A stretch of 52,318 nucleotides of DNA from a virus (lineage: Duplodnaviria; Caudoviricetes): positions 1 to 52,318 of IMG/VR virus record IMGVR_UViG_3300020042_002456; one strand, given 5' to 3'. Below are positions 13,261-44,872 of this stretch, piece after piece. The notes under the pieces were generated by a model. It had not been told where the DNA came from. It was given only the letters and a program-made list of their open reading frames with translations, and did not search any database. Position numbers and translations under genes: made by a program. The stretch's first letter is position 1, and every line of letters begins with the position of its first letter.

Positions 13261-13426
13261 GCGGGGGCAGGGGTTTTTTGTCCCCTGCCTCGACCCCGAA
13301 CTTATCCGCACACAAGGACTGAAACGGGCGCTTGACCTGCGCCTGTTTGATGCCCGAGCCCAACCCGCCATCCGTAAGGGGTTTACTGGGGTGTGGTTCT
13401 ACCGCCTGCCGCTTCAGCCCGCCTGA
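13220..13426 (+). CDS. Small phage protein (PW...G.GFFVP), possibly DNA-binding
   Basis: Overlaps the primase end and the convergent gene end. Confidence 0.6.
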   Translation: MKNLKIIYPWKKTERGQGFFVPCLDPELIRTQGLKRALDLRLFDARAQPAIRKGFTGVWFYRLPLQPA

Positions 13427-15137
13427 TGGCTTTTAAGTAACGCTCGGACTGTAGCTGGCGTTGTGCATTCAAGGCATCAATTCGTTTTTCCTTGGCGTCA
13501 GGTGAAGCGTTGGAGTTACGGATGATGTCCTCTTGCGTACGCAGCGCTCCCATGATCTTCTGGTACTGCGCTGCCAACGGTGCAACCATAATCTCGGCAC
13601 GGTTGTCGGCAAGGAACTCCTTGGCATCTTCGCGCTTGCCCTTCTTTCGATAGTCATCGAAAGTACGCTTGGCTTCCATTGCATCGTTGGCTAGCTTGTA
13701 CACCACATCGGCATCCTCACCGCCGTACTTGCGCTGGAAAGAACTGCCAATTAGCGGCATCTCTGATAGCTTGCGGGTGGGCTCTTCCTTGTCTTCGCGG
13801 AACATCTCATTGGTTGATGCAAGCACCATCAAAGGTATTTGACCTAAGTACCCCGACACGATGTGCTCGATCTGGATAGGCGAGAGCCCCGGAACCACCG
13901 TAGCCATCCATTTAGCAACTTCTGTTGTGTGGGCGTTGTACCGCGCTTCGGGTTTTAGTTTTTCAAGTCGTGCAGACTCCAGCGGTGTGCCGCTGAAGAA
14001 GCTCTTGTTGGCATACACCTCGGCCAGCGGCTTGACAAGCTGGGGTACAAAGTAGCTGCTAGCGCCGGGGATAGCGCCCACAAACATATCCTTGATTGCA
14101 CGTAGCTGTTGGGGTGTGTCCACCTCGCCCTTGATAGCGTCCGCCATAGCCACGCCAGCGGAGAAGAAGAAACCGAACTCGTACGGGATTGGCAGCTTCA
14201 GCGGCTCATCCACACCCGGCAGGGGTATAAAGAAGTTGCTGTACCTGTCTCTTGGCTTGGCGTTTTTGTAGTACTCATCGTCATCCATTGCCATCGCGTA
14301 TGCAAGACCGAAGCCAGTAAGCATCATGGCGTTGTTGGCAAACTTGCGCTTAATCTTCAACACATCTTCGGCAGGCATGTTGCCCGTGGCTGCTTTGACC
14401 AGCACGCTCAAGCCTTGTATCTGCGCGTTGAAGAACGGTATCATGCGGCTGGCGTACTGCACAGTGGGCGACAACCCGCGCTTGGAGAAGTTCATCGACT
14501 CCCGCACCGCATAGTCAGCCTCTGCTTCGGACAGGCCGTTTTTGATGGCGTTGTCGTAGATCAACGTACGGGTAGCTGCATCGGCTTGCAGTGCCAGTCT
14601 GTCGGCTCCGGCAAGTAGGCGGTCTATGGTGCTTTGCGATTTGCCGCTTGCCAACTGCAAGGCAATCTTGGACATGTTTGCAACATCGCCCTCAAACAGC
14701 CCGCTTTGCAGCAAACCCTTTTCGATCATCTTAGCGCCGGTCTTGCTTTTGCCTGCGGCTATTTTCAAAAACTCTTTGTTGGCCTTGAAGATGGCGGTGA
14801 TGGGGCCGTAGTCCAAGCCGGAAGTAGCGGTAGCTGCAAACGGGTCACGGAACAACTGACGGGCTAGGTAGATTGGCGTACGGGTAATGCCCGAACGCAA
14901 CAAGTCGCCAGCAATGCCGCCCCACTTGAGGAACGCAGGCAGTGTCAGGTGAGCGCCGTCCAGTGACTTAATAATCAGTTCGGCGGGGATGCCACCAAAC
15001 AAGGTGTCATTGGTCTCCACACGCAGATAGCGATCCCCTTTGTCGTTTTCACGGTTGGGGTCTGGTTCTTGCGTCCAGCGGATTACGTTGGCTTGGTCTG
15101 GGCCTTTGCCAAATTGATAGGCATCAAGTTTGTTGGC
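13383..15137 (-). CDS. C-terminal part of the giant polyvalent virion protein (LPD38-like); continues 15083..23218 in the -1 frame
   Basis: Frame open upstream of the annotated GTG to 15137 (…QFGKGPDQANVIRW…LRVETNDTL); 'NF.KRG…IPFFNAQIQG…LKLPIPYEFG…NKSFFSGTP' motifs. Confidence 0.75.
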   Translation of the reverse strand, partial: ANKLDAYQFGKGPDQANVIRWTQEPDPNRENDKGDRYLRVETNDTLFGGIPAELIIKSLDGAHLTLPAFLKWGGIAGDLLRSGITRTPIYLARQLFRDPFAATATSGLDYGPITAIFKANKEFLKIAAGKSKTGAKMIEKGLLQSGLFEGDVANMSKIALQLASGKSQSTIDRLLAGADRLALQADAATRTLIYDNAIKNGLSEAEADYAVRESMNFSKRGLSPTVQYASRMIPFFNAQIQGLSVLVKAATGNMPAEDVLKIKRKFANNAMMLTGFGLAYAMAMDDDEYYKNAKPRDRYSNFFIPLPGVDEPLKLPIPYEFGFFFSAGVAMADAIKGEVDTPQQLRAIKDMFVGAIPGASSYFVPQLVKPLAEVYANKSFFSGTPLESARLEKLKPEARYNAHTTEVAKWMATVVPGLSPIQIEHIVSGYLGQIPLMVLASTNEMFREDKEEPTRKLSEMPLIGSSFQRKYGGEDADVVYKLANDAMEAKRTFDDYRKKGKREDAKEFLADNRAEIMVAPLAAQYQKIMGALRTQEDIIRNSNASPDAKEKRIDALNAQRQLQSERYLKAIRRAEAAGGRTTPQ

Positions 15138-18100
15138 TTACCATTCTTACCTATGGGGCCGAGGCCATCACCGGCAGCTTGCATGGCGTAGCCTACGTTC
15201 TTCATCGCCATGTTGTTCATGCCCTTGGTCACCAGCAGCATGGTGTTGCGCATGATGGACTTGTCCAACGGCATGATCTTGGCCTCGCCACCTTTTAGCT
15301 CGGCAAGGTATGGCTGGTGGCGGATGTCGCCAATGGTCAGCGTCTTCTCGCCACCAAAGACCAACTCAGCCGTGCCGTCAGCACGCACGCGGTAGTACGG
15401 AACGTAGTCCTCATCCTTTAAGTAGGCCTTGGCATCAGCCTGCGAAATAGCCGCTACCTGTGGAGAGGACAACCACTCAATCATGCCCCGGTTGTACGCG
15501 TTGTATTTCTTGCGCACATTCTCCAGCGCTGCTTTAAGTTTGGGGTCAGCGTTTGCTGCCGCCATTGCGTCTATAAGTTCTTGCTCGGTCTCAATCCCCA
15601 GAGCGCCAATGTCTAGCTTCTTCAACCCTTTGTTTAAAGCTCGCTGCGCAATCATGTACACCGAGGCCAAGCCCATCTTGGCTTGTGCGTCCCCATAGCT
15701 ATCTGGTATGTCCTGCACGGCATCAAACACTTGGCCCGCATCATTTTCCATGCTGCTGTTGACCGAGTAGTACCCCTTGGCATCCTTAACCATTTTGGGT
15801 GGGCCAACGGACAACGACATTTGCGTAGTTGACATAGCCTGATCGGCTGCGGTAATGCTAAAGATAGCTTGGCGGAACAGCTTGGTGCTGCCCATAGTTT
15901 TTGGGTCTTTAATCGCGTTGTTAAGCGCCTTGATTACACCGGCCCGCATATCCGCCGCTGCCATTTCAATCTGAAGCCCAATGTGTGACCCGGCTTGTTC
16001 TTTATATGTTTTATCTTGCGCAACAGCTTTCTTTGCTAGTTTTGTCAGCGCATCGTCAGACTTGTAGTCGGCCTTGCGAGACAACATTATTTCGTTGGTT
16101 GTCCCAACGGGTTTAAGGTTAACCGCAAGAATTTCAGGCGCGTTGTCTATGTATGCACGTTCAATATACTTACGATCGTTTTTTTGCTCAAGCGCTTCAA
16201 TACCTGCGTCTTTTAGTAATGCGTTTGCTTTTTCAACGCCAAGTTTTTCGCGCATGCCGTAGTACAAAGAATTTAGGTAATAAGTACCCGTATCCTCAAA
16301 CTTAATTAAGTTATATTTGTCGCCATATTTTTTAAGCAACACGTCAATCTGTGGGCGTTCCCCGGCTCTGGCGGTAGAGTTAATACTAAAAATCTTTTCG
16401 CTTGGAATATCATCAAGCGCCCGGTACAAATTTCCTGCGGCAGGTCGTTTTGTCAGGCCATTGATTTTTGTGGCATCTAAAGTGTTTATTGCTTTTAGTT
16501 CCCTGCGGAGAGTTGTTAACTCGTCTCGAGCTTCTTCCAAGCTACTTTCTCTAGCTTTTCTTTTTTCCCGGCTGGCAAGTGCTTTTTCCCAGTCACTAAC
16601 GCTTTTAGTTAGCCGATCACGCGATGCGCTTATGTACTGTTGCGCGGTTTTGTTTTCTACAGGGTTTAATGCGCCCCCAGAAGAAACACTTGATAAATAA
16701 CGGCTCAACAAAACAGATTCGTATTTGCTTTGCAATTCCGCAACAGACAACTTACTGTTATCGGCTGTCATAAACTTTTCGTCCATACTGCGGTAATCTT
16801 CGTACGTTTTGTTGCCGTACCCTGTTTCGTTTGCAGCTTTACCAAACGGTATGGCGTGCTGGTAGTACTCCCCGTACTCTTTGTCTGGGGTTGTGTATGG
16901 GCCAGCGCCTAAAGAGTTATCGGCATCAAAGCGTCTGTCAAATACACCTTCCCCCGCACCGGCTTTACGTACATCAAACTTTGTAAAAGTTGCATCGCTT
17001 CCGTGCCATGTGCCTTTAAGTTCCAACTGCGCGCAGCCGTAGGCAAAGTTAACCAAGTCGCCTGCTTGCAAGTTGGTTGGGTTGATACCAAAAGCGTTGA
17101 GCGCTTTCTTGAACGCCGCAATAACCATGTTCAACCAGTTGCGCAACGCTGAACCGCCTTTAACACCTTGTGGGTTGACGCCCATTTTTACGGCTTCTTC
17201 TACGGCATAAGCCAACAACTCGTCGTCTATATGGGACTTTTGCGTGTTGGCAGCTTCTACGCGGCGCATTGCAGCCGCGCCAATCTTTGCTTCAATAGAA
17301 CCATCGGTGCGCTTCGCCCATTGCCTGATTTGATTAACCAGTGCTTTGTACTGGCCTTCGTTAAAGAAGTTGCGAAAGCCTATGTGAACGCCAACCTCGT
17401 GGAGCAATACACCGAGCCCTTCGTTTTTACCAATATTCTCAGCAAACAAAACCGCCTTGTTGGCTTGCGCAAAACCTTTGGCATCTGACGGAATTTGTTT
17501 GCGTAGCTCATCTTGTAAGTCAGCGTCTTGCTGCCCGATGTATTCTTCTACGTTGTCGTAGATTTCTACGTTACCCCGGCTGGTGACATCACCACCCATA
17601 ACTTTACGAAGTTCTTCTTTGAGGGATTCAACGGTTTGACCTTTAACGGGCGTGCCACGTGACAGCATTGGGCGTGCGCCTGTTGCAGCAACAAACTCTT
17701 GGGTGGACTCGGATACTGGCCCCAGTTTTTCCCGTTGCGCTTTTGTAATGTCTTCGGCTTCAAGCAGCGCTTTTGCTGCATCCAAATTGCCACGGCTGGT
17801 TTCCAGCCGGTTGTCTGCTGCTTCGTACGCAGCCTTTGCGTCTTCTCTAACTTGCGCAGGCTGGCCTTTTGAAGCTTCATACACCTCGGTTGCTTTTTTC
17901 AAGTTAGTTGCGGCTTCATTGGCTTTTATTTGCGCTGCATCTATGTTGGCTTGCAACCGTTCCAGTTGTTGCTGCCTGTCGCTTATTGGTCTGCCTGAGC
18001 GCTTGCTTTCGGTCAGTTTAGCCACGTTGCTGGTTACACCGCGTGTCACGGGGCCAGTGCGTGTCACATTTGATGGGGCTACGTTAGCGCGTTCGGATGC

Positions 18101-21100
18101 CCTGCGTTGGGGTTCTTTTGTTTGCGTTTCTTCAGCCGTTTTACCTTGGCGCTCCAAGGCTTCCACTTGCTCTATCCGCTGCGCAACTGAGTCGCGTTTG
18201 AGCCGGAGTATTTCCGTTTGCCGAAAAGCAGCGCCCTGCCCTTTAAAAGCAAAGACGGGACTGGAGCGTGCGCCCCCCGGTGTTTTGTTACGTTCACTTG
18301 GTATCAACTGCGATACTTTTACTTTGCTGACTTCAGGGTACTTGCCCGGTGGTAAGCTGGCAAACGTAACTAACCCCGCTTCTTTGGCTTTTTGTTTTTC
18401 AAAGTAAGACAAAGACTTTGCCCGCGCCACTTTAATTTTGTCTTCCAACGCATTGACTCGGTTTTCCAGTGTGCCCAGTTCTAGCTTTAGTTTCTTTAAG
18501 GGCCACGCAAGAATTTGTTTTGCGTACTCTTTGTTGGACTTGGCAATGCCTTCAGTCTTTAGCTGCTCGTTGTAAAACTCGTTGGCTTCTTGCAGCGCAG
18601 ATTCCAAACGCGTAATTTGCATTTGCTGCGGCTTGCCGGGAAGACCTTCTTTTTGTTTGTCTTCCAGTTCTTGTTTTAATTCGTTAATTTCTTTTTCAAT
18701 CGCGTCAATGTTATCCATTGCCGCATTGGTAATTTGGTTTTGTACTTTGCCTGCATACGTTGTTGATGTTATTGGTGTTACAGAAATACCACCCGGTAAA
18801 GTTATTTTTTGCTTTGCCCCATATAGCCGGACGTTTTCTTCTTTTATACGTTGTGCCCGTGCTTGGTCACGCAACTTAACAAGTTCAGCATCAATGCTGG
18901 GACGGCGTTTTTTAAACGCCGCAGAAGCTTGTTCGTACGCTTTGGTAGAAGGGCTTTTGGCGGCTTCTTTACTTGCTGCGTCTGCTTCCTCTTTGGCAAC
19001 AATGGCGTTACGTAAGTCAACTTGCGCCTGCGCAATTTCTGTTCTTAGCACTGCGGGGTCTTTGCCGTTGTGTTCTAAATCCCACAAGGTCTTTTGTGCG
19101 TCCATGACCGCAGGTATCTTGTCGATGTTGTCTTGTGCTTTGGACACGCTCTTTAGCGTGCTGCTCAAGTCTGCCAGCATTGCCTGTGTGTTTTCTGCCG
19201 TGGTACGCAGCTTACTAAACTGCGATAGCTCTTGCCGTAGTTTTTTGTTTTGCCGTTGAAGCGTGTCTACCAAGACGCGGTTCTCTTTAATCTTTTTAAG
19301 CGCTGCCTCAAACATCATCATTGTTTGGGCGTCTTCTTGCCCAAAAACAAAAGCGGGCGCTTCATACCCAATCTCACCAAACCCAAGTTTGGACTCTATC
19401 TGGCGCTTGAGACTTGCAATTTCGTTTTTGTATTCTTGCGTTTTTTCTGGTGCGGGTGTGGCTCCTTCTTTTTTAAGTTCTTTCTGAAGTTCCCTCAGTT
19501 GTGCTGTTGCAGCTTCCAACTTTGTTTCTAGCGGGGCAATGCCCGACAACACTCTGTTTAACTTTTCAATCTGCTCTCTACGCAAAGCAACCGATTGTTT
19601 TGCGGCATTGCTTTGTTTGTCCAGTTCAGTTAAAGTTTTTGTGTATACCGCTACATCTTGCTCAAGGGCTTTAATTTCTTTTTCATTGTTTACCGATGTC
19701 ATAGCAAGTATGGTTCTAAACATCGGGTCGGTTTTAAATTTGCCGTACTGCTGGAGCAAGGCTACAACGTCATCGTTGTCTTTGAGGATGCTCTTGGCTG
19801 TGCCGCGCAAGTCAGATTCTGTAACCAATGCGTTGAGCTTGGCTTCCAGTTCATTGATTAAGCCAAAGTAGTACGTGACTTTTGGCGCTTGCTGTTTACG
19901 TACTTTGGTGCGTGCTTCAGCCTCGCGCATTTCTTTAACAATTTTGCTGTCAAGAAAACGGCGGAACATGCCGGGGGTAGCGCGGCCCAGTGCGGTTGCG
20001 GGTACTTCTTTCTCAGGAAAAAGGGACATCTGGTCAATGTCTTTTTCTGACTGCGCCAGTTCTTCTTTGACCCGCAGGTGCGTTTCCAATTCCCGTGGTA
20101 GAGACAGCGGCTTGGCTTTGGCCCTTTCTCCGCGCATTGTTCCGCGATTTTCAAGCTGTCTTGCTGCTCTTTGGACATTAGCTTGCTGTGCGGCTTTAGG
20201 GTTTGCTGCTATGGCTGCTTTAAGTGCTTGGTCAGCGTTCATTGTGGGGGCAGCTTCGGCACGACCCCGCACGCTAATAGCTGTAGGCCCAGTACTGGTC
20301 ATGAAACCTTGTTCAACTTCTTCTGGCTTAATTAAACTTGCCAGACGCGCCGCCTCTGCCCTAGATTTACCTTTTTGAAACACGCCGTTTTTATCAGTCC
20401 AAAGCTCAACAAGGTAGTCATACTTTTCTTTTTTAACTTTAGCAAGTGCTTTGGCTCTTTCGCTATCGCTAAGTTTGTAGGTTTTATCCGCAAAATCAGA
20501 TTCAACTTTTTCCGCAGCCGTTGGCATTGTTACGCTACCGGGAAGTCCCGTAACCGTAGAAGGCAAAGCTGCGCCCGACTCGCGCAAGGCTCGGGCCATA
20601 GCGCCCGTACCTTCTCCACCACGAGGCGTAATTTCAAGGCGTTTAGTTAGAGCCCCCTCGCCGTATACCCCTTCCTCACCGCGCTCAATCTTGCCAAGTT
20701 GCTCGTCGAGCATAGTAAAAAGAGAAGCCCCGCCAGCCGTTTCAGTTTCTTCATTGTTTGGCTCAAACGTGTATTTAGCAACTTGATCTAGCGGAACATC
20801 GCGTGTTTCCGTTCCTGTTGCAGAAGCTTTACTGGTTACTTTTGCACTAATATTTTTACCTTGTGCATCTTTAACAAACGCAACACCTACGGGACGACCT
20901 TGCGTATCCCGGTAATTTAACGGCACGCGCTCTGTAGTAATTGCTAAATCGTTTTCACCGATGTTGGCGTCTGCTCGGCGCAGGAATGCGTAAGCCTCAT
21001 CACTCAAGTCTTCACGCAATTGAAGTTGGTTAACCCGATCACGCAGCGCTGCTGCTGTCACTGGCTCTGCCGTACCTTCTTGGCGGGGGCGCAGTTTGAA

Positions 21101-23218
21101 TGGGGCTGCCCCGCCGCGTTGGGGCTGGGGTTGCTCTACGGGTTGTGTTTCTTCCGCAGTAGGTAATTCTTCGCCTTGCGTCAAAACTTTTTTAACTTGG
21201 TTTAATGCAGCGGACGAACCCGTGTCTGGGTAAGGCTGCTCAAATATATCAAACTGCTGCATTGACGAGACACCGCCTACTGGGCGCTCACCAATACGTT
21301 GGAGCCCTTTTGCCTCCATCCCCACTTTAATTGCCCGGTCTTGCTCTCTGCCCTGAGCCCGGTACTGTTCTTCAGCCTGCGCCTGCTGCGCGGCAATGTC
21401 GGCTTCCTGCTCCTCAACACCAAGGTTAAGATTGGCTGCGTACTGTGGACGAATGGCTAACTGCCTGTCACCTGTAACCGTTGACTGGAACGGCTGCATT
21501 TCAAACTGCTGCTGGGGGCTGGGGGCTGAGGGTGCTGTTTCTAGCTGTTTTTGCAGTTCTTTGATTTGAGCTGCATATCTAGCGCTTATATCTACATCGC
21601 CGTTTGTGTCAGCCTTGGCAATCTTCTTTGTTAAATCCGTAATTTTTGTACTGATTGCGTTTACGTCTACTTCTGGAGGAACAATTTTTTGAACCTCAGT
21701 CAGCATTTTTTTAATTGAGCTGTACTTTTCGCCAATTGCTATTTTGGCGTCTGTATCTGTAGCGGGGATTTTTGCGTTCTCGTCCCGCAGCCGATTAAGA
21801 TAATCCGAAAGCCCGCGTATTTGTAGTTGCAAATCACCTTGGTCTTCAGCCTGCGGCTCGGGCGCTGCACGCTCCACGGGCTTGCCCTGCATGTCCAGTT
21901 CAGGCGTCTTGGGGGTTGGCAGGTTGCCAAACATATCCCGCTGTTGAAGCTGGGTTGTGTCCTGCCCAAGCGGTGGGGCTGGCTCTTTTGGTAGGAACTG
22001 GCGGTACTGGCGGTATTCTTTGTTAGTATCTTTGAGCACCGTAGCGTGCTCGGCAAGCGCCTGCTGCGTCTCGCGGTTGTCCTGCTTCTGATCTTCAGTG
22101 AGCTTGTTGCCCTTGCTGGCCTTGTGAATCTGGCCTTCCAGTTCTTTTTGTCTTTGCTCGGCAGCAACGTAGTCGGCCTGTGCTTTTTGGGCGTACTCCG
22201 GCGTTTGTTTTGTGGCTAGGGTGGTTGCATCCAGCTTGTCCTGCTCGACTCGGGCTGCGTCAGCTTGCGCTTTCTGTTCTTCGCGTTGCTGCGTGTCAAA
22301 CCGGCTTTGCTCACCACCGCGCTCCACGTACCGGCCAGCCGGAGCAATGACACCACCAAGCACCGCACCGCCAACAAAACTGTCAAAGTACTCTTTACGG
22401 GCTGCTTCATTAGTGATGCTTAACCCCGCCTGCATACGCTCAAACACCTGCTGGCCTGCCTCAGTCAGACCCTCTCTTCCCATTGTCTTACCGGTAGCTA
22501 AAAAGTAATCCGCAGCGGTTTTCTTCAAGGCTTCTTTGGTGTAGTTAGCTACCACTTGCTCGGATGCATTAATACCCGCGCTTTGCAAAATCTTGCCTAC
22601 GCCGGGGAACATACGTAAGCTAAGGATGTCTAGCGCAGCCATAGGAATGGCAGCTAGGGCGGCATTGGTGAGGTCGGTGTCTTTTAACGCTGTCTTAGGC
22701 CTGCCTTCTTCGGGTTGCATTTGCCGAATTAAGTTTGAGCCTGCAAACTGCCCCGCAGATGCAAGCCCCGCAGCGCCAACCCCTGCGGCTGTTGCCGCCA
22801 AACCGGTTAGAGGAAGCGCAGCAGCAGCGCCCCCCGCGATCAAAGGAGCCACTATATAGGGTATGGAGCCGCCCGCCAACTCACTAATCTTAGCCAGTGG
22901 GTCTTCTGTCCAACCTGCTTGGGTTGGAACAACTGTTTTCTTTTTGTAGGCTTCTTGCTCGGCTATGTACTTCTCAGCAGCGGGCAAGTCCATGATACCG
23001 GTACGCCCTGCAAGGGCAGCGCCTGCGCCTTTAATATCTGCGACTGCGCCTTTGAGCGACGGCATGAACCCAGACTTTGGGCTTTCTTCTGGGGCTTTCT
23101 GCGTTAACCCAAAAGCTTGAGGATATAGTTTTTCTGCTGCGCTTAACGCCGATGCGGGGTCTTCGCCCTCTTTTAGCGGAAACAAATTACCATCAGGAAG
23201 TCTCACGTATTGGGGCAT
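15083..23218 (-). CDS. Giant polyvalent (probably ejected) virion protein, N-terminal 2711 aa, with zincin-like and ART-like domains
   Basis: Hydrophobic Gly/Ala N-terminal segments, long coiled coils, LLHEVGVH (17384-17401), WHGS…FD…GAGEG…GAGPYTT (~16890-17010). Confidence 0.8.
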   Translation of the reverse strand: MPQYVRLPDGNLFPLKEGEDPASALSAAEKLYPQAFGLTQKAPEESPKSGFMPSLKGAVADIKGAGAALAGRTGIMDLPAAEKYIAEQEAYKKKTVVPTQAGWTEDPLAKISELAGGSIPYIVAPLIAGGAAAALPLTGLAATAAGVGAAGLASAGQFAGSNLIRQMQPEEGRPKTALKDTDLTNAALAAIPMAALDILSLRMFPGVGKILQSAGINASEQVVANYTKEALKKTAADYFLATGKTMGREGLTEAGQQVFERMQAGLSITNEAARKEYFDSFVGGAVLGGVIAPAGRYVERGGEQSRFDTQQREEQKAQADAARVEQDKLDATTLATKQTPEYAQKAQADYVAAEQRQKELEGQIHKASKGNKLTEDQKQDNRETQQALAEHATVLKDTNKEYRQYRQFLPKEPAPPLGQDTTQLQQRDMFGNLPTPKTPELDMQGKPVERAAPEPQAEDQGDLQLQIRGLSDYLNRLRDENAKIPATDTDAKIAIGEKYSSIKKMLTEVQKIVPPEVDVNAISTKITDLTKKIAKADTNGDVDISARYAAQIKELQKQLETAPSAPSPQQQFEMQPFQSTVTGDRQLAIRPQYAANLNLGVEEQEADIAAQQAQAEEQYRAQGREQDRAIKVGMEAKGLQRIGERPVGGVSSMQQFDIFEQPYPDTGSSAALNQVKKVLTQGEELPTAEETQPVEQPQPQRGGAAPFKLRPRQEGTAEPVTAAALRDRVNQLQLREDLSDEAYAFLRRADANIGENDLAITTERVPLNYRDTQGRPVGVAFVKDAQGKNISAKVTSKASATGTETRDVPLDQVAKYTFEPNNEETETAGGASLFTMLDEQLGKIERGEEGVYGEGALTKRLEITPRGGEGTGAMARALRESGAALPSTVTGLPGSVTMPTAAEKVESDFADKTYKLSDSERAKALAKVKKEKYDYLVELWTDKNGVFQKGKSRAEAARLASLIKPEEVEQGFMTSTGPTAISVRGRAEAAPTMNADQALKAAIAANPKAAQQANVQRAARQLENRGTMRGERAKAKPLSLPRELETHLRVKEELAQSEKDIDQMSLFPEKEVPATALGRATPGMFRRFLDSKIVKEMREAEARTKVRKQQAPKVTYYFGLINELEAKLNALVTESDLRGTAKSILKDNDDVVALLQQYGKFKTDPMFRTILAMTSVNNEKEIKALEQDVAVYTKTLTELDKQSNAAKQSVALRREQIEKLNRVLSGIAPLETKLEAATAQLRELQKELKKEGATPAPEKTQEYKNEIASLKRQIESKLGFGEIGYEAPAFVFGQEDAQTMMMFEAALKKIKENRVLVDTLQRQNKKLRQELSQFSKLRTTAENTQAMLADLSSTLKSVSKAQDNIDKIPAVMDAQKTLWDLEHNGKDPAVLRTEIAQAQVDLRNAIVAKEEADAASKEAAKSPSTKAYEQASAAFKKRRPSIDAELVKLRDQARAQRIKEENVRLYGAKQKITLPGGISVTPITSTTYAGKVQNQITNAAMDNIDAIEKEINELKQELEDKQKEGLPGKPQQMQITRLESALQEANEFYNEQLKTEGIAKSNKEYAKQILAWPLKKLKLELGTLENRVNALEDKIKVARAKSLSYFEKQKAKEAGLVTFASLPPGKYPEVSKVKVSQLIPSERNKTPGGARSSPVFAFKGQGAAFRQTEILRLKRDSVAQRIEQVEALERQGKTAEETQTKEPQRRASERANVAPSNVTRTGPVTRGVTSNVAKLTESKRSGRPISDRQQQLERLQANIDAAQIKANEAATNLKKATEVYEASKGQPAQVREDAKAAYEAADNRLETSRGNLDAAKALLEAEDITKAQREKLGPVSESTQEFVAATGARPMLSRGTPVKGQTVESLKEELRKVMGGDVTSRGNVEIYDNVEEYIGQQDADLQDELRKQIPSDAKGFAQANKAVLFAENIGKNEGLGVLLHEVGVHIGFRNFFNEGQYKALVNQIRQWAKRTDGSIEAKIGAAAMRRVEAANTQKSHIDDELLAYAVEEAVKMGVNPQGVKGGSALRNWLNMVIAAFKKALNAFGINPTNLQAGDLVNFAYGCAQLELKGTWHGSDATFTKFDVRKAGAGEGVFDRRFDADNSLGAGPYTTPDKEYGEYYQHAIPFGKAANETGYGNKTYEDYRSMDEKFMTADNSKLSVAELQSKYESVLLSRYLSSVSSGGALNPVENKTAQQYISASRDRLTKSVSDWEKALASREKRKARESSLEEARDELTTLRRELKAINTLDATKINGLTKRPAAGNLYRALDDIPSEKIFSINSTARAGERPQIDVLLKKYGDKYNLIKFEDTGTYYLNSLYYGMREKLGVEKANALLKDAGIEALEQKNDRKYIERAYIDNAPEILAVNLKPVGTTNEIMLSRKADYKSDDALTKLAKKAVAQDKTYKEQAGSHIGLQIEMAAADMRAGVIKALNNAIKDPKTMGSTKLFRQAIFSITAADQAMSTTQMSLSVGPPKMVKDAKGYYSVNSSMENDAGQVFDAVQDIPDSYGDAQAKMGLASVYMIAQRALNKGLKKLDIGALGIETEQELIDAMAAANADPKLKAALENVRKKYNAYNRGMIEWLSSPQVAAISQADAKAYLKDEDYVPYYRVRADGTAELVFGGEKTLTIGDIRHQPYLAELKGGEAKIMPLDKSIMRNTMLLVTKGMNNMAMKNVGYAMQAAGDGLGPIGKNGKPTNLMPINLAKAQTKPT

Positions 23219-42732: not shown

Positions 42733-42990
42733 TCAGCACTTCCATCTGGCTAAGGAAGCCGCCTTGCGGGTAGGCTTACCTTTTTCATCTTTCATCGGCC
42801 CCGGCATACCCGACATCCGCGCACAGAATGAATTCTTGCGTGCGCCACCTTGAGGCTGGGGAGCTTTCAGATTACTGCCGGTTGCTGCGTTGTACTTGGC
42901 TCTACCTTTGGCAGTCAGTCCAGCCCCTTTAGAGACGGGTAGCTTCTCGCCCCGGCCTACAGAGAGAACCGGGCCTTTTTTCTTAGCCAT
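42733..42990 (-). CDS. Small basic phage protein (DUF6321-like)
   Basis: 'GL.AKGRA.YN…G.NLK.P…SFCARM…SL.RW.C'. Confidence 0.7.
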   Translation of the reverse strand: MAKKKGPVLSVGRGEKLPVSKGAGLTAKGRAKYNAATGSNLKAPQPQGGARKNSFCARMSGMPGPMKDEKGKPTRKAASLARWKC

Positions 42991-43331: not shown

Positions 43332-43823
43332 TTACTGCTCAGTAGCTGTTGGGTTAGCAACGCCATCGCTACCTTTTACAACATACGTCAGAGTCAATGT
43401 GCCAGCACCAGAGGTGGCAGTGACGTTAGCCTGTGTAAACGTAATGATTGCGTCTGTCGTGCCTACGTTATTACACAACACAGCGGCGGCGGCGCTGTTA
43501 TTGCCAAGCAGAATATTTACGATGCCAGTGTTTGCAAACACGCTTCCGTTTGCTGCTGTATTGATTGCAACAGCATTAGAGAAAAGTGCGTATGTAGGAG
43601 TCGTCGTTGCATAGGCGACGGTAGTATTAAACTGAGCGGTCAGAATCTGTGAGCCTGCCGGAATTGTAAAAGCAACCGTAGCTGCCGTAATATCCGTGTA
43701 CAAAATGGCTTTGGACTGCGACACAACAGTAGCGCCCAAATTGCGGAGGGTTCCAGAAGTTGTGCCGGTAGTGTTTTTGACCGTGCCAAGCAGCCAAGGG
43801 CCGAGATGAGTTGCGAATCCCAT
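43332..43823 (-). CDS. Structural protein following the major capsid gene (possible head decoration/fibre)
   Basis: SD AAGGA; T/A-rich beta protein. Confidence 0.7.
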   Translation of the reverse strand: MGFATHLGPWLLGTVKNTTGTTSGTLRNLGATVVSQSKAILYTDITAATVAFTIPAGSQILTAQFNTTVAYATTTPTYALFSNAVAINTAANGSVFANTGIVNILLGNNSAAAAVLCNNVGTTDAIITFTQANVTATSGAGTLTLTYVVKGSDGVANPTATEQ

Positions 43824-43834
43824 GATAATTCCTT

Positions 43835-43905
43835 ACATACAAGTGAAGTGCATCAATCGGTATGTCGTCTGCCGGGACAGTTTGATGCACCGGAAAGCCC
43901 GGAAT
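43835..43905 (-). ncRNA. Putative doubly pseudoknotted 5' leader RNA
   Basis: Three perfect interleaved helices: P1 43898-43902/43872-43876, P2 43882-43890/43848-43856, P3 43860-43865/43835-43840. Confidence 0.6.
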
Positions 43906-43911
43906 GGCTGC

Positions 43912-43940
43912 AATATACACTAAAAAGAAAAGGGGCACAA
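43912..43940 (-). promoter_or_regulatory. Sigma70-like promoter TTGTGC-N17-TATATT
   Basis: -35 at 43935-43940 (within the terminator hairpin), -10 at 43912-43917, 17-nt spacer. Confidence 0.55.
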
Positions 43941-43953
43941 GGCCCCTTTTCTT
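43921..43953 (-). terminator. Rho-independent terminator after the major capsid gene (potentially bidirectional)
   Basis: AAGAAAAGGGGC-CTTGT-GCCCCTTTTCTT followed by TTTA. Confidence 0.85.
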
Positions 43954-43960
43954 AGTCTTT

Positions 43961-44872
43961 TTAGGACGAACCGGGCGATCCAAAGATACCCAGAGGGTCA
44001 GACCAGCCGAAGCTGTAACGCTCACGAGCCTTGTAACGGACATTTCCGGTGTCAAAATCACCGTCCATTGAGTTAGCCAGAGGCGAACGCACAAAGTGCT
44101 TCAGACCGTTAGGCACATCAGTGGTCAGATACCAGCCATTGGTGTCGGTCAAGAAGTGGTTAACACAGTAACCTTCAGGGATCGAACCGTTGTTCTTCAA
44201 CGCGTTGATATCGTTATCGGTAGTACCAACACGCAGGCTGGTCTCCAACAGACGAGTAGCAACGAACATCAGAGCAGGCGGAATAACCAACTTCTTAGGC
44301 TTAGCTGCAATCAGCAGGCCACGCTCATCAGTCCAAGCTGCGATCTGAATAACGGCGGCTTCCAAGGAAGTCTCGTTAAGGTCAGCGCCAGTTGCAGGAC
44401 GGTTTGAGTTAGTGCCACCGTTAACCAGCGGATGGGCAGTGCTAAACAGTGCAACGCCATCACCACCAGCATAAGCCGAGGAGAAACCGTTGTTGATAAC
44501 AGCAGCGCCTTTAACCTGCTTGGTATATGCCATAGCACGAGCCAAACCTTTGGTGTAACGAGCAGACAGGCTGTCGTACAGGTTATCCTCAATCGCCTCT
44601 TCAGTGATTGAGAAACCCAAAGCAATGGTTTCGTGGTTGTAGCGAGCAGTCCATGCTTCCTGAGCATTGTCATAAGCGATGGCAGAGCCTTCGTTCTTGA
44701 CAGGTGCGGCAGAAAAGCCAGAAAGCTTGGTTTCTTCTTCAAAAGAACGCTCAGAGGTTTCGGTTTCATAAATTTCTTTATGTTCCTCACCATAACGGGC
44801 GTACTCAAGACCAAACAATGCATTCAGGCCAGGGAGCAGTTCTTTGAGTAGTTGGGCACGGGAAATAGCCAT
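43961..44872 (-). CDS. Major capsid protein (HK97 fold inferred)
   Basis: 'AISRAQL.KEL.PGLNALFG.EY…EG…DG..LF...HP…DFDTGN.RYKARERYSFG.SD'; strong SD; followed by terminator. Confidence 0.88.
   Translation of the reverse strand: MAISRAQLLKELLPGLNALFGLEYARYGEEHKEIYETETSERSFEEETKLSGFSAAPVKNEGSAIAYDNAQEAWTARYNHETIALGFSITEEAIEDNLYDSLSARYTKGLARAMAYTKQVKGAAVINNGFSSAYAGGDGVALFSTAHPLVNGGTNSNRPATGADLNETSLEAAVIQIAAWTDERGLLIAAKPKKLVIPPALMFVATRLLETSLRVGTTDNDINALKNNGSIPEGYCVNHFLTDTNGWYLTTDVPNGLKHFVRSPLANSMDGDFDTGNVRYKARERYSFGWSDPLGIFGSPGSS

What the first reader, a model, noticed from the sequence alone, without database searches (positions are those of the whole stretch)
43821..43953. Promoter hidden in the capsid terminator drives a compact, doubly pseudoknotted leader RNA that abuts the next RBS
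Seen (minus strand): the terminator hairpin contains TTGTGC, followed 17 nt later by TATATT, with a predicted start near 43905. The RNA reads AUU CCGGG cuuuccg GUGCAUCAA ACUGU CCCGG CAGACG ACAUAC CGA UUGAUGCAC uucacuu GUAUGU AAGGA auuauc AUG. Three perfect helices (5, 9 and 6 bp) interleave as a-b-a'-c-b'-c', with short linkers, and c' ends directly at the SD. This is unusual for a ~70-nt spacer in a genome with almost no intergenic DNA, and I do not recognise the topology as a known riboswitch or ribozyme class. Inference: a riboswitch-like or protein-sensing switch, ribozyme or structural RNA gating the downstream cargo/tail/lysis operon separately from capsid synthesis.
Basis: partly seen in the sequence, partly recalled or inferred. 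Interest (0 to 1): 0.82.

Follow-up and report, generated by a model that had tools for sequence, protein, structure and literature searches.

The report
Pseudoknotted leader RNA of phage cement gene
A compact RNA with four interlocking helices sits between a promoter and the ribosome-binding site of a capsid "cement" protein gene in a widespread group of lake and ocean phages; it is clearly a conserved structured RNA that no RNA-family library lists, but what it senses or does has not been shown.

Summary
On the minus strand, a terminator (43953-43925) follows the capsid gene. It overlaps a promoter-like TTGTGC-17-TATATT. An ~80-nt leader then ends at the SD of the next gene. The three helices exist.

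About 100 homologous leaders were found downstream of the same capsid lineage. They occur in lake viral contigs, in the uncultured phage genome DSL-LC04, and in cultured Pelagibacter phages HTVC023P (strong match) and HTVC027P (weaker match). All four helices covary: 94.5% of cells pair against 71.7% in shuffles, and 21 of 23 pairs show double changes. Helix a pairs in 98 of 98 sequences, in nine sequence variants.

Rfam 15 has no match. The downstream gene is not tail or lysis cargo. It is a small hypervariable protein with a conserved N-terminal arm, and its predicted fold is closest to phage cement proteins.

Helix c' lies within 0-2 nt of the SD in 96 of 97 sequences and overlaps it in some subgroups. 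The best reading is therefore a cis-acting gate on translation initiation. The trigger is unknown. Ribozyme and antitermination readings have little support.

The parts
43961..44872 (-). Major capsid protein gene (303 aa, P0001)
   Evidence: ORF. Pfam Phage_capsid_4 E 2.3e-13 and Mu-like_gpT. Relatives of 78-95% aa identity lie upstream of the motif in 94 of 98 loci; the other 4 have under 400 nt upstream.
43925..43953 (-). Intrinsic terminator-like hairpin after the capsid gene. It is flagged on both strands. Its loop and 3' stem carry the -35-like TTGTGC.
   Evidence: 12 pairs, 6 G-C, loop 5, T run. Comparable G+C hairpins with T runs stand after the capsid gene in the homologues printed.
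43935..43940 (-). -35-like hexamer TTGTGC
   Evidence: Read. TTGnnn lies 16-18 nt before the -10-like box in 58 of 95 distinct upstream contexts, including perfect TTGACA where a homing-endonuclease gene replaces the terminator context.
43912..43917 (-). -10-like hexamer TATATT
   Evidence: Columns T 88%, A 94%, T 86%, A 86% over 97 distinct sequences. In the printout, a higher-G+C subgroup instead has TGnTAnAAT further upstream plus an extra 5' hairpin.
43905..43905 (-). Predicted transcription start (A). Inferred, not shown.
   Evidence: It lies 7 nt after the -10 box. The column is A in 87% of sequences. No raw-read or 5'-end data were available (laid contigs only).
43898..43902 (-).
   Evidence: Pairs with 43876-43872. 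98 of 98 distinct sequences are fully paired, in 9 sequence variants. All 5 pairs show double changes on A4. On A2, which was not fitted to this helix, 98.1% pair and 4 of 5 pairs show double changes.
43882..43890 (-). P2 5' strand (helix b), GUGCAUCAA
   Evidence: Pairs with 43856-43848. 9 of 9 pairs show double changes, 97.7% of cells pair, and there are 63 sequence variants.
43869..43880 (-). P3 hairpin (new helix d): CUG 43880-43878 with CAG 43871-43869. Its loop U+CCCGG (43877-43872) is the P1 3' strand.
   Evidence: 97 of 97 sequences pair, in 7 variants: CAG/CUG, CUG/CAG, CGG/CCG, CCG/CGG, CCC/GGG, CCA/UGG, CUA/UAG. The closing pair C43880-G43869 is invariant.
43860..43865 (-). P4 5' strand (helix c), ACAUAC
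   Evidence: Pairs with 43840-43835. 6 of 6 pairs show double changes and 97.8% of cells pair on A4. There are 24 variants.
43848..43856 (-). P2 3' strand, UUGAUGCAC
43835..43840 (-). P4 3' strand, GUAUGU, abutting the SD
43857..43881 (-). Junction core. Its conserved unpaired nucleotides are A43881 (97%), A43868 (96%), C43867 (97%), G43858 (96%) and A43857 (100%).
   Evidence: Column frequencies over 97 distinct sequences.
43830..43834 (-). Shine-Dalgarno AAGGA
   Evidence: The AGGA-type core starts -2 to +2 nt from the end of P4 in 96 of 97 sequences (an automated count; 5 rows had an unaligned P4 3' strand).
43332..43823 (-). Gene for a small cement/decoration-like capsid protein (163 aa, P0002), with a conserved N-terminal arm and a variable body
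   Evidence: AF2 model pLDDT 75.3. Best Foldseek matches are the Pam1 capsid chain 7eel_H (E 5.8e-4), GP4 capsid 8h89_J, KHP30 7dn2_1 and the KHP40 cement protein 7dou_4. The syntenic gene of DSL-LC04 is annotated 'cement protein'.

Best explanation
A promoter-proximal, cis-acting leader RNA controls expression of the capsid cement-protein gene, most likely at translation initiation.

The ~75-nt leader folds into two interlocked pseudoknots:
- P1 pairs the first nucleotides of the transcript with the loop of the small hairpin P3. P3 and P1 would stack into one 8-bp rod.
- P2 closes the domain.
- P4 pairs the P3/P2 junction with the 3' tail that runs straight into the SD.

Five unpaired junction nucleotides (A, AC, GA) are almost invariant. 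They would form the core of the fold or a binding pocket.

Because P4 abuts the SD, and contains it in some subgroups, the folded RNA sets how well the 30S subunit can engage. I propose that a trans factor stabilises or loosens the fold. The most likely factor is a phage protein, such as unassembled cement protein acting through its conserved N-arm, or a capsid-related protein. Cement-protein synthesis would then be tuned apart from capsid-protein synthesis, whose mRNA ends at the terminator just upstream.

Shown: the structure, its conservation, its fixed place before the SD, and the nature of the downstream gene.
Inferred: the transcription start, the action on translation, and the existence and identity of any trans factor.
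For: Structure:
- 30-sequence MAFFT alignment: 98.4% of cells paired against 84.8% in shuffles; 16 of 23 pairs with double changes; 0 of 500 shuffles as high; slid controls 22-40% paired.
- 97 distinct sequences: 94.5% against 71.7%; 21 of 23 pairs with double changes; slid controls 24-40%.
- P1 and P4, which were not part of the model that made that alignment, still pair at 98.1% and 82.5%. After refitting they pair at 100% and 97.8%, with 11 of 11 pairs showing double changes.
- G-U pairs are frequent and C-A mismatches rare, which fits the gene strand.

Distribution:
- R1 matched 65 of 80 capsid-selected loci. R2 added 3 of the other 15.
- R1 matched 73 of 80 loci found by a DNA pattern alone.
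- There is one copy in the window.
- It is always downstream of the same capsid lineage: 94 of 98 loci, and the other 4 lack upstream sequence.
- It is present in DSL-LC04 (R2 E 1.6e-7), HTVC023P (E 4.8e-15) and HTVC027P (E 9.4e-5).

Link to translation:
- The SD core starts -2 to +2 nt from P4 in 96 of 97 sequences.
- By reading the alignment, P4's 3' strand includes part of the SD in about 18 of 98 sequences (CUGCAAG-GA, CUGCGAG-GA, UUGAGG).
- In 36 of 94 loci, 588-1280 nt are inserted between capsid gene and leader; in examples checked this is a homing-endonuclease gene. The promoter-leader-gene unit stays intact.
- All 99 leaders precede a gene with a homologous N-arm.

No terminator/antiterminator alternative fits, because the AUG follows 6-10 nt after the SD.
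Against: - No experiment or read-level data show the transcript start, the fold in solution, or any effect on translation.
- In most members (about 80 of 98), including the window, the SD itself is outside P4. The fold need not block the ribosome and could even help it, for example by stacking on the SD-antiSD helix.
- No conserved mutually exclusive structure was found. The only candidate (P1 5' strand with the second CCGG) pairs in 82.0% of cells against 79.6% in shuffles, and is absent from about a quarter of members.
- Only five unpaired nucleotides are strongly conserved, which is few for a ligand pocket.
- The nested MFE is not unusual (z 0.03).
- The promoter is a weak match in the window itself.
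- The protein partner is pure inference.
Confidence: 0.5

Rival explanations
1. A constitutive 5' UTR module with no sensing. The compact fold buries the 5' end (P1 starts about 3 nt after the predicted start). This protects a very highly expressed late mRNA from 5'-end-dependent decay, and holds the SD in a defined, open position for strong translation.
For: - P1 begins 2-4 nt after the conserved A at the predicted start.
- The higher-G+C subgroup adds another hairpin at the very 5' end.
- The SD is outside P4 in most members.
- Solved cement proteins are made in capsid-like amounts, for example 540 copies each in phage GP4 (abstract of PMC9698820 as listed).
- No convincing alternative structure was found.
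- That 5'-terminal stem-loops stabilise bacterial mRNAs (ompA type) is recalled knowledge.
Against: - A single hairpin would do this job. Here four helices and five junction nucleotides are kept across capsid divergence down to 78% and in A+T-rich pelagiphages.
- P4 includes part of the SD in about 18 of 98 members, which is odd for an enhancer.
- The P4-SD distance is far more constrained than a stabiliser needs.
Confidence: 0.28
2. A new small-molecule or ion riboswitch, in which ligand binding in the junction core stabilises P4 and P1 and lowers (or raises) translation of the cement gene.
For: - Its architecture resembles SD-sequestering pseudoknot riboswitches (SAM-II, preQ1-II; recalled).
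- The junction purines are near-invariant.
- There is no match to any known class.
- It occurs in phages of SAR11, a host known (recalled) for heavy use of riboswitches.
Against: - The regulated gene is a virion structural protein with no link to any metabolite. Riboswitch classes are normally tied to genes for their ligand.
- Few unpaired positions are conserved.
- The motif is confined to one phage capsid lineage. None of 80 bacterial or archaeal loci that matched the core pattern passed the model.
Confidence: 0.1
3. It acts otherwise than on its own translation, as one of three things: a processive antitermination RNA acting on RNA polymerase (HK022 put type), a self-cleaving ribozyme, or a processed trans-acting small RNA.
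For: It is promoter-proximal in all members, as put RNAs are (recalled). It has a compact pseudoknotted fold, as many ribozymes do.
Against: - No ribozyme family of Rfam matched. The only ribozyme row is a 13.6-bit partial match on the opposite strand, against a gathering score of 210.
- The fixed 0-2 nt junction with the SD is unexplained by these roles.
- Only weak terminator-like sites lie downstream in the same strand.
- The put-type two-hairpin architecture (recalled) is not present.
Confidence: 0.05

Closest known systems
Protein-bound translational operator pseudoknots: phage T4 gene 32 leader, E. coli rpsO (S15) and alpha-operon (S4) leaders (recalled; the T4 case is also cited in PMC10690425, passage seen)
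   Same: A pseudoknotted 5' leader of a bacterial or phage mRNA, next to or overlapping the ribosome-binding site. The alpha-operon leader is also a double pseudoknot. In these cases the encoded protein binds when in excess and lowers its own translation, which would suit a structural protein made for assembly.
   Different: There is no sequence or model similarity, and Rfam holds Alpha_RBS but no match appeared. No protein binding has been shown here. In T4 gene 32 the pseudoknot lies tens of nucleotides upstream of the SD, whereas here it touches the SD. The topology also differs: here the 5' end pairs into a hairpin loop.
SD-sequestering pseudoknot riboswitches (SAM-II, SAM-V, preQ1-II, guanidine-III; recalled)
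   Same: Small pseudoknotted aptamers whose 3' strand carries or abuts the SD, with no separate expression platform.
   Different: No Rfam match. Four helices and two interlocked pseudoknots instead of one. The regulated gene is a virion protein. No ligand is known.
DUF2815 RNA (Rfam RF03084), a phage-associated leader motif
   Same: A weak local likeness (GGCAGACGA and the SD-AUG end), and a position just upstream of a phage gene start.
   Different: 15.9 bits against a gathering score of 41.2, E 0.76. The model's hairpin is not matched by pairs here. Not a member.
Anonymous candidate structured RNAs of IMG/VR (Fremin et al. 2023, PMC10690425)
   Same: That study clustered IMG/VR intergenic regions and kept 8,890 DNA-virus motifs with covariation (passages seen). 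This motif is abundant in IMG/VR and covaries strongly, so it may be one of them.
   Different: The main text passages I saw do not describe it. Its 879 motifs linked to downstream domains would not include it, because the downstream protein has no Pfam domain. The supplementary tables were closed, so presence or absence could not be checked.
Exoribonuclease-resistant RNAs of flaviviruses (xrRNA; recalled)
   Same: The overall topology: the 5' end pairs into the interior of a fold closed by a long-range helix, and a second pseudoknot uses the 3' tail.
   Different: It lies in a bacterial phage mRNA leader next to an SD. There is no sequence similarity. Resistance to any nuclease is untested. 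This is an analogy of shape only.

Membership tests
Any Rfam 15 family | Score at or above the family's gathering threshold | tested here: not met
   (E-value mode, window) gave only sub-threshold noise and terminator look-alikes. One search (gathering mode, 10 homologous loci) gave 0 matches.
DUF2815 RNA (RF03084) | Covariance-model score of at least 41.2 bits, with the model hairpin formed | tested here: not met
   15.9 bits, E 0.76, with non-standard pairs marked in the hairpin.
Self-cleaving ribozymes (hammerhead, twister, twister-sister, pistol, hatchet, HDV-like, hairpin) | Match to the catalytic-core covariance model | tested here: not met
   No such family appears. One search lists Hairpin-meta2 at 13.6 bits against 210, on the opposite strand and partial.
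Self-cleaving ribozymes | Site-specific self-cleavage | not testable with these tools
   Needs an in vitro assay.
Riboswitch (general) | Conserved structured aptamer with covariation | tested here: met
Riboswitch (general) | Direct binding of a small ligand | not testable with these tools
Riboswitch (general) | Association with genes for metabolism or transport of the ligand | tested here: not met
   All 99 downstream genes are small cement-like virion proteins.
Riboswitch (general) | Expression platform or alternative structure | tested here: inconclusive
   P4 abuts or overlaps the SD. The only candidate competitor hairpin is weakly supported.
Autogenous translational operator (T4 gene 32 / S15 / S4 type) | Structured leader at the ribosome-binding site of the regulated gene | tested here: met
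Autogenous translational operator (T4 gene 32 / S15 / S4 type) | Binding by the encoded (or a partner) protein, with repression | not testable with these tools
   Needs gel shift, toeprinting or reporters.
HK022 put-type antitermination RNA | Two adjacent stem-loops just downstream of a promoter, acting on terminators downstream (features recalled) | tested here: not met
   The promoter-proximal position is met. The architecture is a double pseudoknot, not two hairpins. No strong terminators lie downstream.
Sigma-70-type promoter | -35 and -10 hexamers at 16-18 nt spacing, and a mapped start | tested here: inconclusive
   The window's hexamers (3 of 6 and 5 of 6) fall below the scan threshold. 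TTGnnn at 16-18 nt occurs in 58 of 95 contexts, and the -10 columns are 86-94% conserved. No start has been mapped.
Intrinsic terminator | G+C-rich hairpin followed by a U run at the end of a gene | tested here: met
   Function not assayed.
Phage capsid cement/decoration protein (downstream gene) | Fold and gene position like solved cement proteins | tested here: inconclusive
   Best Foldseek matches are cement chains of Pam1, GP4, KHP30 and KHP40, but TM is only 0.43-0.55 and pLDDT 75. The gene follows the capsid gene, and DSL-LC04's syntenic gene is annotated 'cement protein'. No Pfam, PHROG or PDB sequence match.

The most novel reading that the evidence does not exclude
A new class of RNA sensor that couples synthesis of a capsid cement protein to the state of the infection. 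The double pseudoknot would bind either unassembled cement or capsid protein (assembly feedback, as recalled for the P22 scaffolding protein but with a defined RNA operator) or a small molecule. This would switch the ribosome-binding site of a late structural gene in the HTVC023P-type phages of SAR11 and their lake relatives.
Probability: 0.3. Interest if true: 0.85.

Novelty: new variant of a known kind. Interest (0 to 1): 0.72.

Why it matters
- Structured leader RNAs of phage late genes are little known, and complex folds with two interlocked pseudoknots in about 75 nt are rare.
- This one has unusually clean comparative support.
- It belongs to a phage lineage that includes the HTVC023P type. 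[quoted passage not shown]
- It comes with cultured members (HTVC023P, HTVC027P) and an existing infection RNA-seq series for HTVC027P, so its transcript and function can be tested directly.
- If it senses a protein or ligand, it would be a new regulatory RNA class for virion assembly. If it is a stabiliser or enhancer, it is a compact natural 5' UTR part.
- It also marks the start of a hypervariable cement-protein gene. It defines a site where homing endonuclease genes insert without breaking the unit.

Tried and rejected
Nested folding of the leader (z 0.03) and of five homologous or syntenic leaders gave no useful signal. The program cannot model pseudoknots, and only P2 appears.

Coding explanation: a mechanical 155-aa ORF (44094..43627, minus) and a 49-aa ORF on the plus strand (43806..43955) cross the leader. 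I rejected both. Close homologues differ by 1-2-nt insertions in linkers, and the variation is compensatory.

tRNA/tmRNA: none found.

Bacterial genomes: the core pattern hit 120 or more stretches of genome contigs, mostly high-G+C actinobacteria. Of the 80 loci held, 0 passed model R2 at E <= 0.01; one had E 0.86. These are chance matches.

Seven of 80 pattern-derived viral loci matched neither model.

Twelve of 80 capsid loci matched neither model. At least three of these (L047, L056, L064) end within about 100 nt of the capsid gene, so absence there means little.

Metatranscriptomes: four lake-water RNA libraries, kept as contigs, hold related sequence over the leader and both genes. The bin 43894-43947 (terminator and promoter) has the lowest depth in all four, and some contigs stop matching at 43891-43895. 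Contigs cannot show starts, DNA may be present, and the contigs run on with unlike letters. This is no evidence for a start site.

Roseobacter phages CRP-901 and CRP-902 and Planktothrix phage Pag-Yong1 have syntenic genes with the same N-arm, read for Pag-Yong1 and CRP-901. They gave no significant model match. Their leaders look structured by eye, but I did not test this.

The alternative hairpin (P1 5' strand with the second CCGG) was counted and found weak.

PHROGs, Pfam and a PDB sequence search gave nothing for the downstream proteins.

Literature searches returned 0 papers for 'rna motif + major capsid + covariation + phage + pseudoknot' and for 'cement protein + pseudoknot + phage'. 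A looser search led to PMC10690425. No search found a description of this motif. Subscription journals and supplements were not searchable.

Full report
What is in the window.

Read on the minus strand, the major capsid gene is 44872..43961. It matches Pfam Phage_capsid_4 at E 2.3e-13. It ends in a terminator-like hairpin at 43953..43925, with 12 pairs, 6 of them G-C, and a T run. TTGTGC (43940-43935) lies in the loop and 3' stem of that hairpin. Seventeen nt later comes TATATT (43917-43912), and A43905 lies 7 nt after it.

- a: 43902-43898 with 43876-43872.
- b: 43890-43882 with 43856-43848.
- c: 43865-43860 with 43840-43835.

They are followed at once by AAGGA (43834-43830) and AUG (43823). 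The coordinates and sequences in the finding are correct.

The nested MFE is ordinary (z 0.03). Even so, none of 20,000 mononucleotide shuffles of the leader reproduced the interleaved 5/9/6-bp arrangement, and 121 had a perfect helix of 9 bp or more.

Homologues.

A search of IMG/VR with the capsid protein returned 80 loci out of at least 600 matches. BLASTN of the intergenic region showed the leader in many of them. A MAFFT alignment showed compensatory changes in all three helices.

CAGAC linkers' covary as a fourth helix. CNG (43880-43878) pairs with CNG (43871-43869), forming a hairpin whose 6-nt loop contains the 3' strand of helix a. I call the helices P1 (a), P2 (b), P3 (the new one) and P4 (c).

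A covariance model of the nested part, P2+P3 (R1), found:
- 65 of the 80 capsid loci, and a single copy in the window.
- 73 of 80 loci collected with a degenerate DNA pattern alone.

A second model built on P1+P4 (R2) added 3 of the 15 capsid loci that R1 had missed.

Covariation.

- On the 30-sequence MAFFT alignment, 98.4% of cells form standard pairs against 84.8% in shuffles. Sixteen of 23 pairs show changes on both sides. No shuffle of 500 reached any measure, and sliding the 3' partners drops pairing to 22-40%.
- On 97 distinct sequences aligned by R1, the figures are 94.5% against 71.7%, 21 of 23 pairs, and a covariation score of 0.628 against 0.200.
- That alignment was fitted to P2 and P3 only, so the support for P1 (98.1% paired, 4 of 5 pairs with double changes) is independent of the fit.
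- After alignment with R2, which leans towards P1 and P4, P1 pairs in 100% and P4 in 97.8% of cells. All 11 pairs show double changes.
- By variant count, P1 occurs in 9 sequence forms, all fully complementary in 98 of 98 sequences. P3 occurs in 7 forms, paired in 97 of 97. P4 has 24 forms and P2 has 63.
- G-U pairs are common and non-pairs rare, which fits transcription of the gene strand.
- The sequences are related, so the shuffle counts are not probabilities. The slid controls and the many independent pair types make a chance or purely phylogenetic explanation very unlikely.

Conserved unpaired positions are few: A43881, A43868, C43867, G43858 and A43857, each at 96-100%. They cluster at the P2/P3/P4 junction.

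Geometry (inference).

The P3 5' strand plus the P1 5' strand together complement the continuous strand a'+P3 3' (CCCGGCAG). P3 and P1 can therefore stack into one 8-bp rod, with a single bridging nucleotide, as in loop-loop 'kissing' helices. P2 and P4 form an H-type pseudoknot with a 7-9-nt loop.

Context.

Every motif with enough upstream sequence follows a capsid gene of the same lineage (78-95% aa identity). This holds for 94 of 98 loci; the other 4 have under 400 nt upstream.
- In 58 of the 94, the gap from capsid gene to motif is 22-102 nt.
- In 36 of the 94, it is 588-1280 nt.

I looked at 29 of these longer gaps. Several hold an ORF that looks like a homing endonuclease. Pfam confirmed GIY-YIG+NUMOD3 in L106 and Endonuclease_7 in L060, with a weak GIY-YIG match in L046. 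Three of the 6 tested had no match. These insertions lie upstream of the -35 region and leave promoter, leader and gene together.

Promoter.

Upstream of the motif, 58 of 95 distinct contexts have TTGnnn 16-18 nt before a TAnnn(T/A/G) box. Many have TTGACA where the neighbouring sequence is unrelated to the window's terminator. In that printout, a higher-G+C subgroup has TGnTAnAAT a little further upstream, followed by an extra small hairpin. The promoter reading is thus supported by conservation. No transcript start has been measured.

The passage of PMC12753301 seen lists an RNA polymerase gene as specific to the other phage studied. That fits use of the host enzyme by HTVC027P. I also found no polymerase among ten large ORFs of the window.

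The gene behind the leader.

All 99 leaders precede an ORF of 64-240 aa, some cut by locus ends. Its first 10-15 residues are alike (MGFATHLGPW, MA[RN]TTFSGPV, MAVSTTQSIWRSGGG) and the rest is highly variable. None of eight representatives matches Pfam or PHROGs.

An AlphaFold model of the window's protein, built from 19 sequences, has pLDDT 75.3. It is a beta sandwich with a disordered N-arm. Its best Foldseek matches in the PDB are:
- chain H of the cyanophage Pam1 capsid (E 5.8e-4, TM 0.43/0.49),
- the capsid of Ralstonia phage GP4 (8h89_J),
- Helicobacter phage KHP30 (7dn2_1),
- the KHP40 cement protein (7dou_4).

The scores are modest, so this is a likeness, not proof. The syntenic gene of phage DSL-LC04 is annotated 'cement protein', and that of Pag-Yong1 'minor capsid protein'.

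Named phages.

- DSL-LC04, a lake metagenome-assembled genome (search listing of PMC10611076), has the motif (R1 E 8.7e-4; R2 E 1.6e-7). All four helices are readable: CUAGG/CCUAG, CUCGUAUCU/AGAUACGAG, CUG/CAG, UAGUAG/CUACUA.
- Cultured Pelagibacter phage HTVC023P has a clear copy (63.9 bits, E 4.8e-15). It lies between a terminator, TGTATAAT, and gp41, whose product starts MANTTFQGPV.
- HTVC027P has a weaker copy before gp62, whose product starts MANTTFSGPV (E 9.4e-5).
- Roseobacter phages CRP-901 and CRP-902 and Planktothrix phage Pag-Yong1 gave no significant match.

Relation to the SD.

By an automated count, the AGGA-type core begins -2 to +2 nt from the end of P4 in 96 of 97 sequences. 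In 68 of these it begins exactly 1 nt after (in 5 rows the P4 3' strand was left unaligned). Reading the alignments, about 18 of 98 members place part or all of the SD inside P4: CUUGCAG/CUGCAAG-GA, CUCGCAG/CUGCGAG-GA and CCUCAA/UUGAGG. In the window the SD is just outside P4.

What it is not.

- Rfam 15 gave nothing above noise for the window, and nothing at gathering thresholds for ten homologous loci. The best row is DUF2815 RNA at 15.9 bits against 41.2, without its hairpin.
- No tRNA or tmRNA was found.
- The pattern's hits in bacterial genomes are chance: 0 of 80 passed the model.
- A coding explanation is excluded by frame-breaking indels and compensatory variation.

Mechanism.

The fixed junction with the SD points to action on the expression of this gene, most simply on translation initiation. 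So do the overlap with the SD in some members, the constant partnership with one gene family even after insertions upstream, and the lack of any terminator alternative. I give this 0.5 as stated, with a trans factor that is probably a protein.

A constitutive stabiliser/enhancer role is the main rival (0.28). It fits the buried 5' end and the exposed SD of most members, but not the elaborate conserved fold. A metabolite riboswitch gets 0.1, and other roles (antitermination, ribozyme, small RNA) get 0.05. The candidate competitor hairpin (P1 5' strand with the second CCGG) is only marginally above its composition control (82.0% against 79.6%). A 'switch' is therefore not shown.

Novelty.

No description was found in the searchable literature. 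However, Fremin et al. 2023 (PMC10690425; passages seen) mined IMG/VR intergenic regions and report 8,890 unnamed DNA-virus candidates. This abundant, strongly covarying motif may well be among them. The supplements were closed, so I could not check. I rate it a new variant of a known kind (a structured cis-regulatory leader), with high confidence that the RNA is real and moderate confidence in how it acts.

Noticed in passing
L046:3556-4329, L106:2481-3188, L060:3464-4321 and other loci with a 588-1280 nt gap between capsid gene and leader: In 36 of 94 loci an extra stretch sits between the capsid terminator and the leader's promoter. Examples encode GIY-YIG+NUMOD3 or Endonuclease VII-type proteins, which look like free-standing homing endonucleases using this intergenic site. 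Three of six tested inserts had no Pfam match.
   Followed up: partly
window 43332-43823 (-) and the ORFs after each leader in L001-L161: The downstream protein family keeps a 10-15-residue N-terminal arm. It varies from 64 to about 240 aa with unrelated-looking bodies, which suggests a hot spot of diversification on the capsid surface.
   Followed up: partly
window 43925-43953, both strands: The terminator hairpin has an A run before it and a T run after it, and the scan flags it on both strands. It could stop transcription from either direction.
   Followed up: no
window 43890-43893 (-): A second CCGG just before P2 can pair with the P1 5' strand in about three quarters of members. It changes along with P1 in L008/L044 and L013, but it is absent from the CUGGG and CUAGG subgroups. 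It is a possible competitor hairpin, not established.
   Followed up: partly
L288:3940-4012 (Planktothrix phage Pag-Yong1): The leader of the syntenic 'minor capsid protein' gene is a different, G+C-rich hairpin (z -2.73). By eye, its interior CCGUCUCC is complementary to the GGAGACGG at the SD. This may be an unrelated SD-pairing pseudoknot at the same gene position.
   Followed up: no
window 43821-43875 (-): There is a weak local likeness to Rfam DUF2815 RNA, another phage leader motif (15.9 bits, E 0.76). It is probably chance.
   Followed up: partly
window 42733-42990 (-): An 85-aa ORF matches the C-terminal ends of eight PHROG families of very different lengths (best phrog_10346, E 4.2e-26). 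It appears to be a shared C-terminal module of unknown function.
   Followed up: no
window 15083-23218 (-) and 13383-15020 (-): A 2711-aa ORF lies next to a protein with an LPD38 'large polyvalent protein' domain. The giant ORF itself was not examined.
   Followed up: no
L287, L288, L289, L290, L291, L292 (GenBank relatives): All six named relatives carry a GroES-like co-chaperonin gene a few genes upstream of the capsid gene, in the same order.
   Followed up: no
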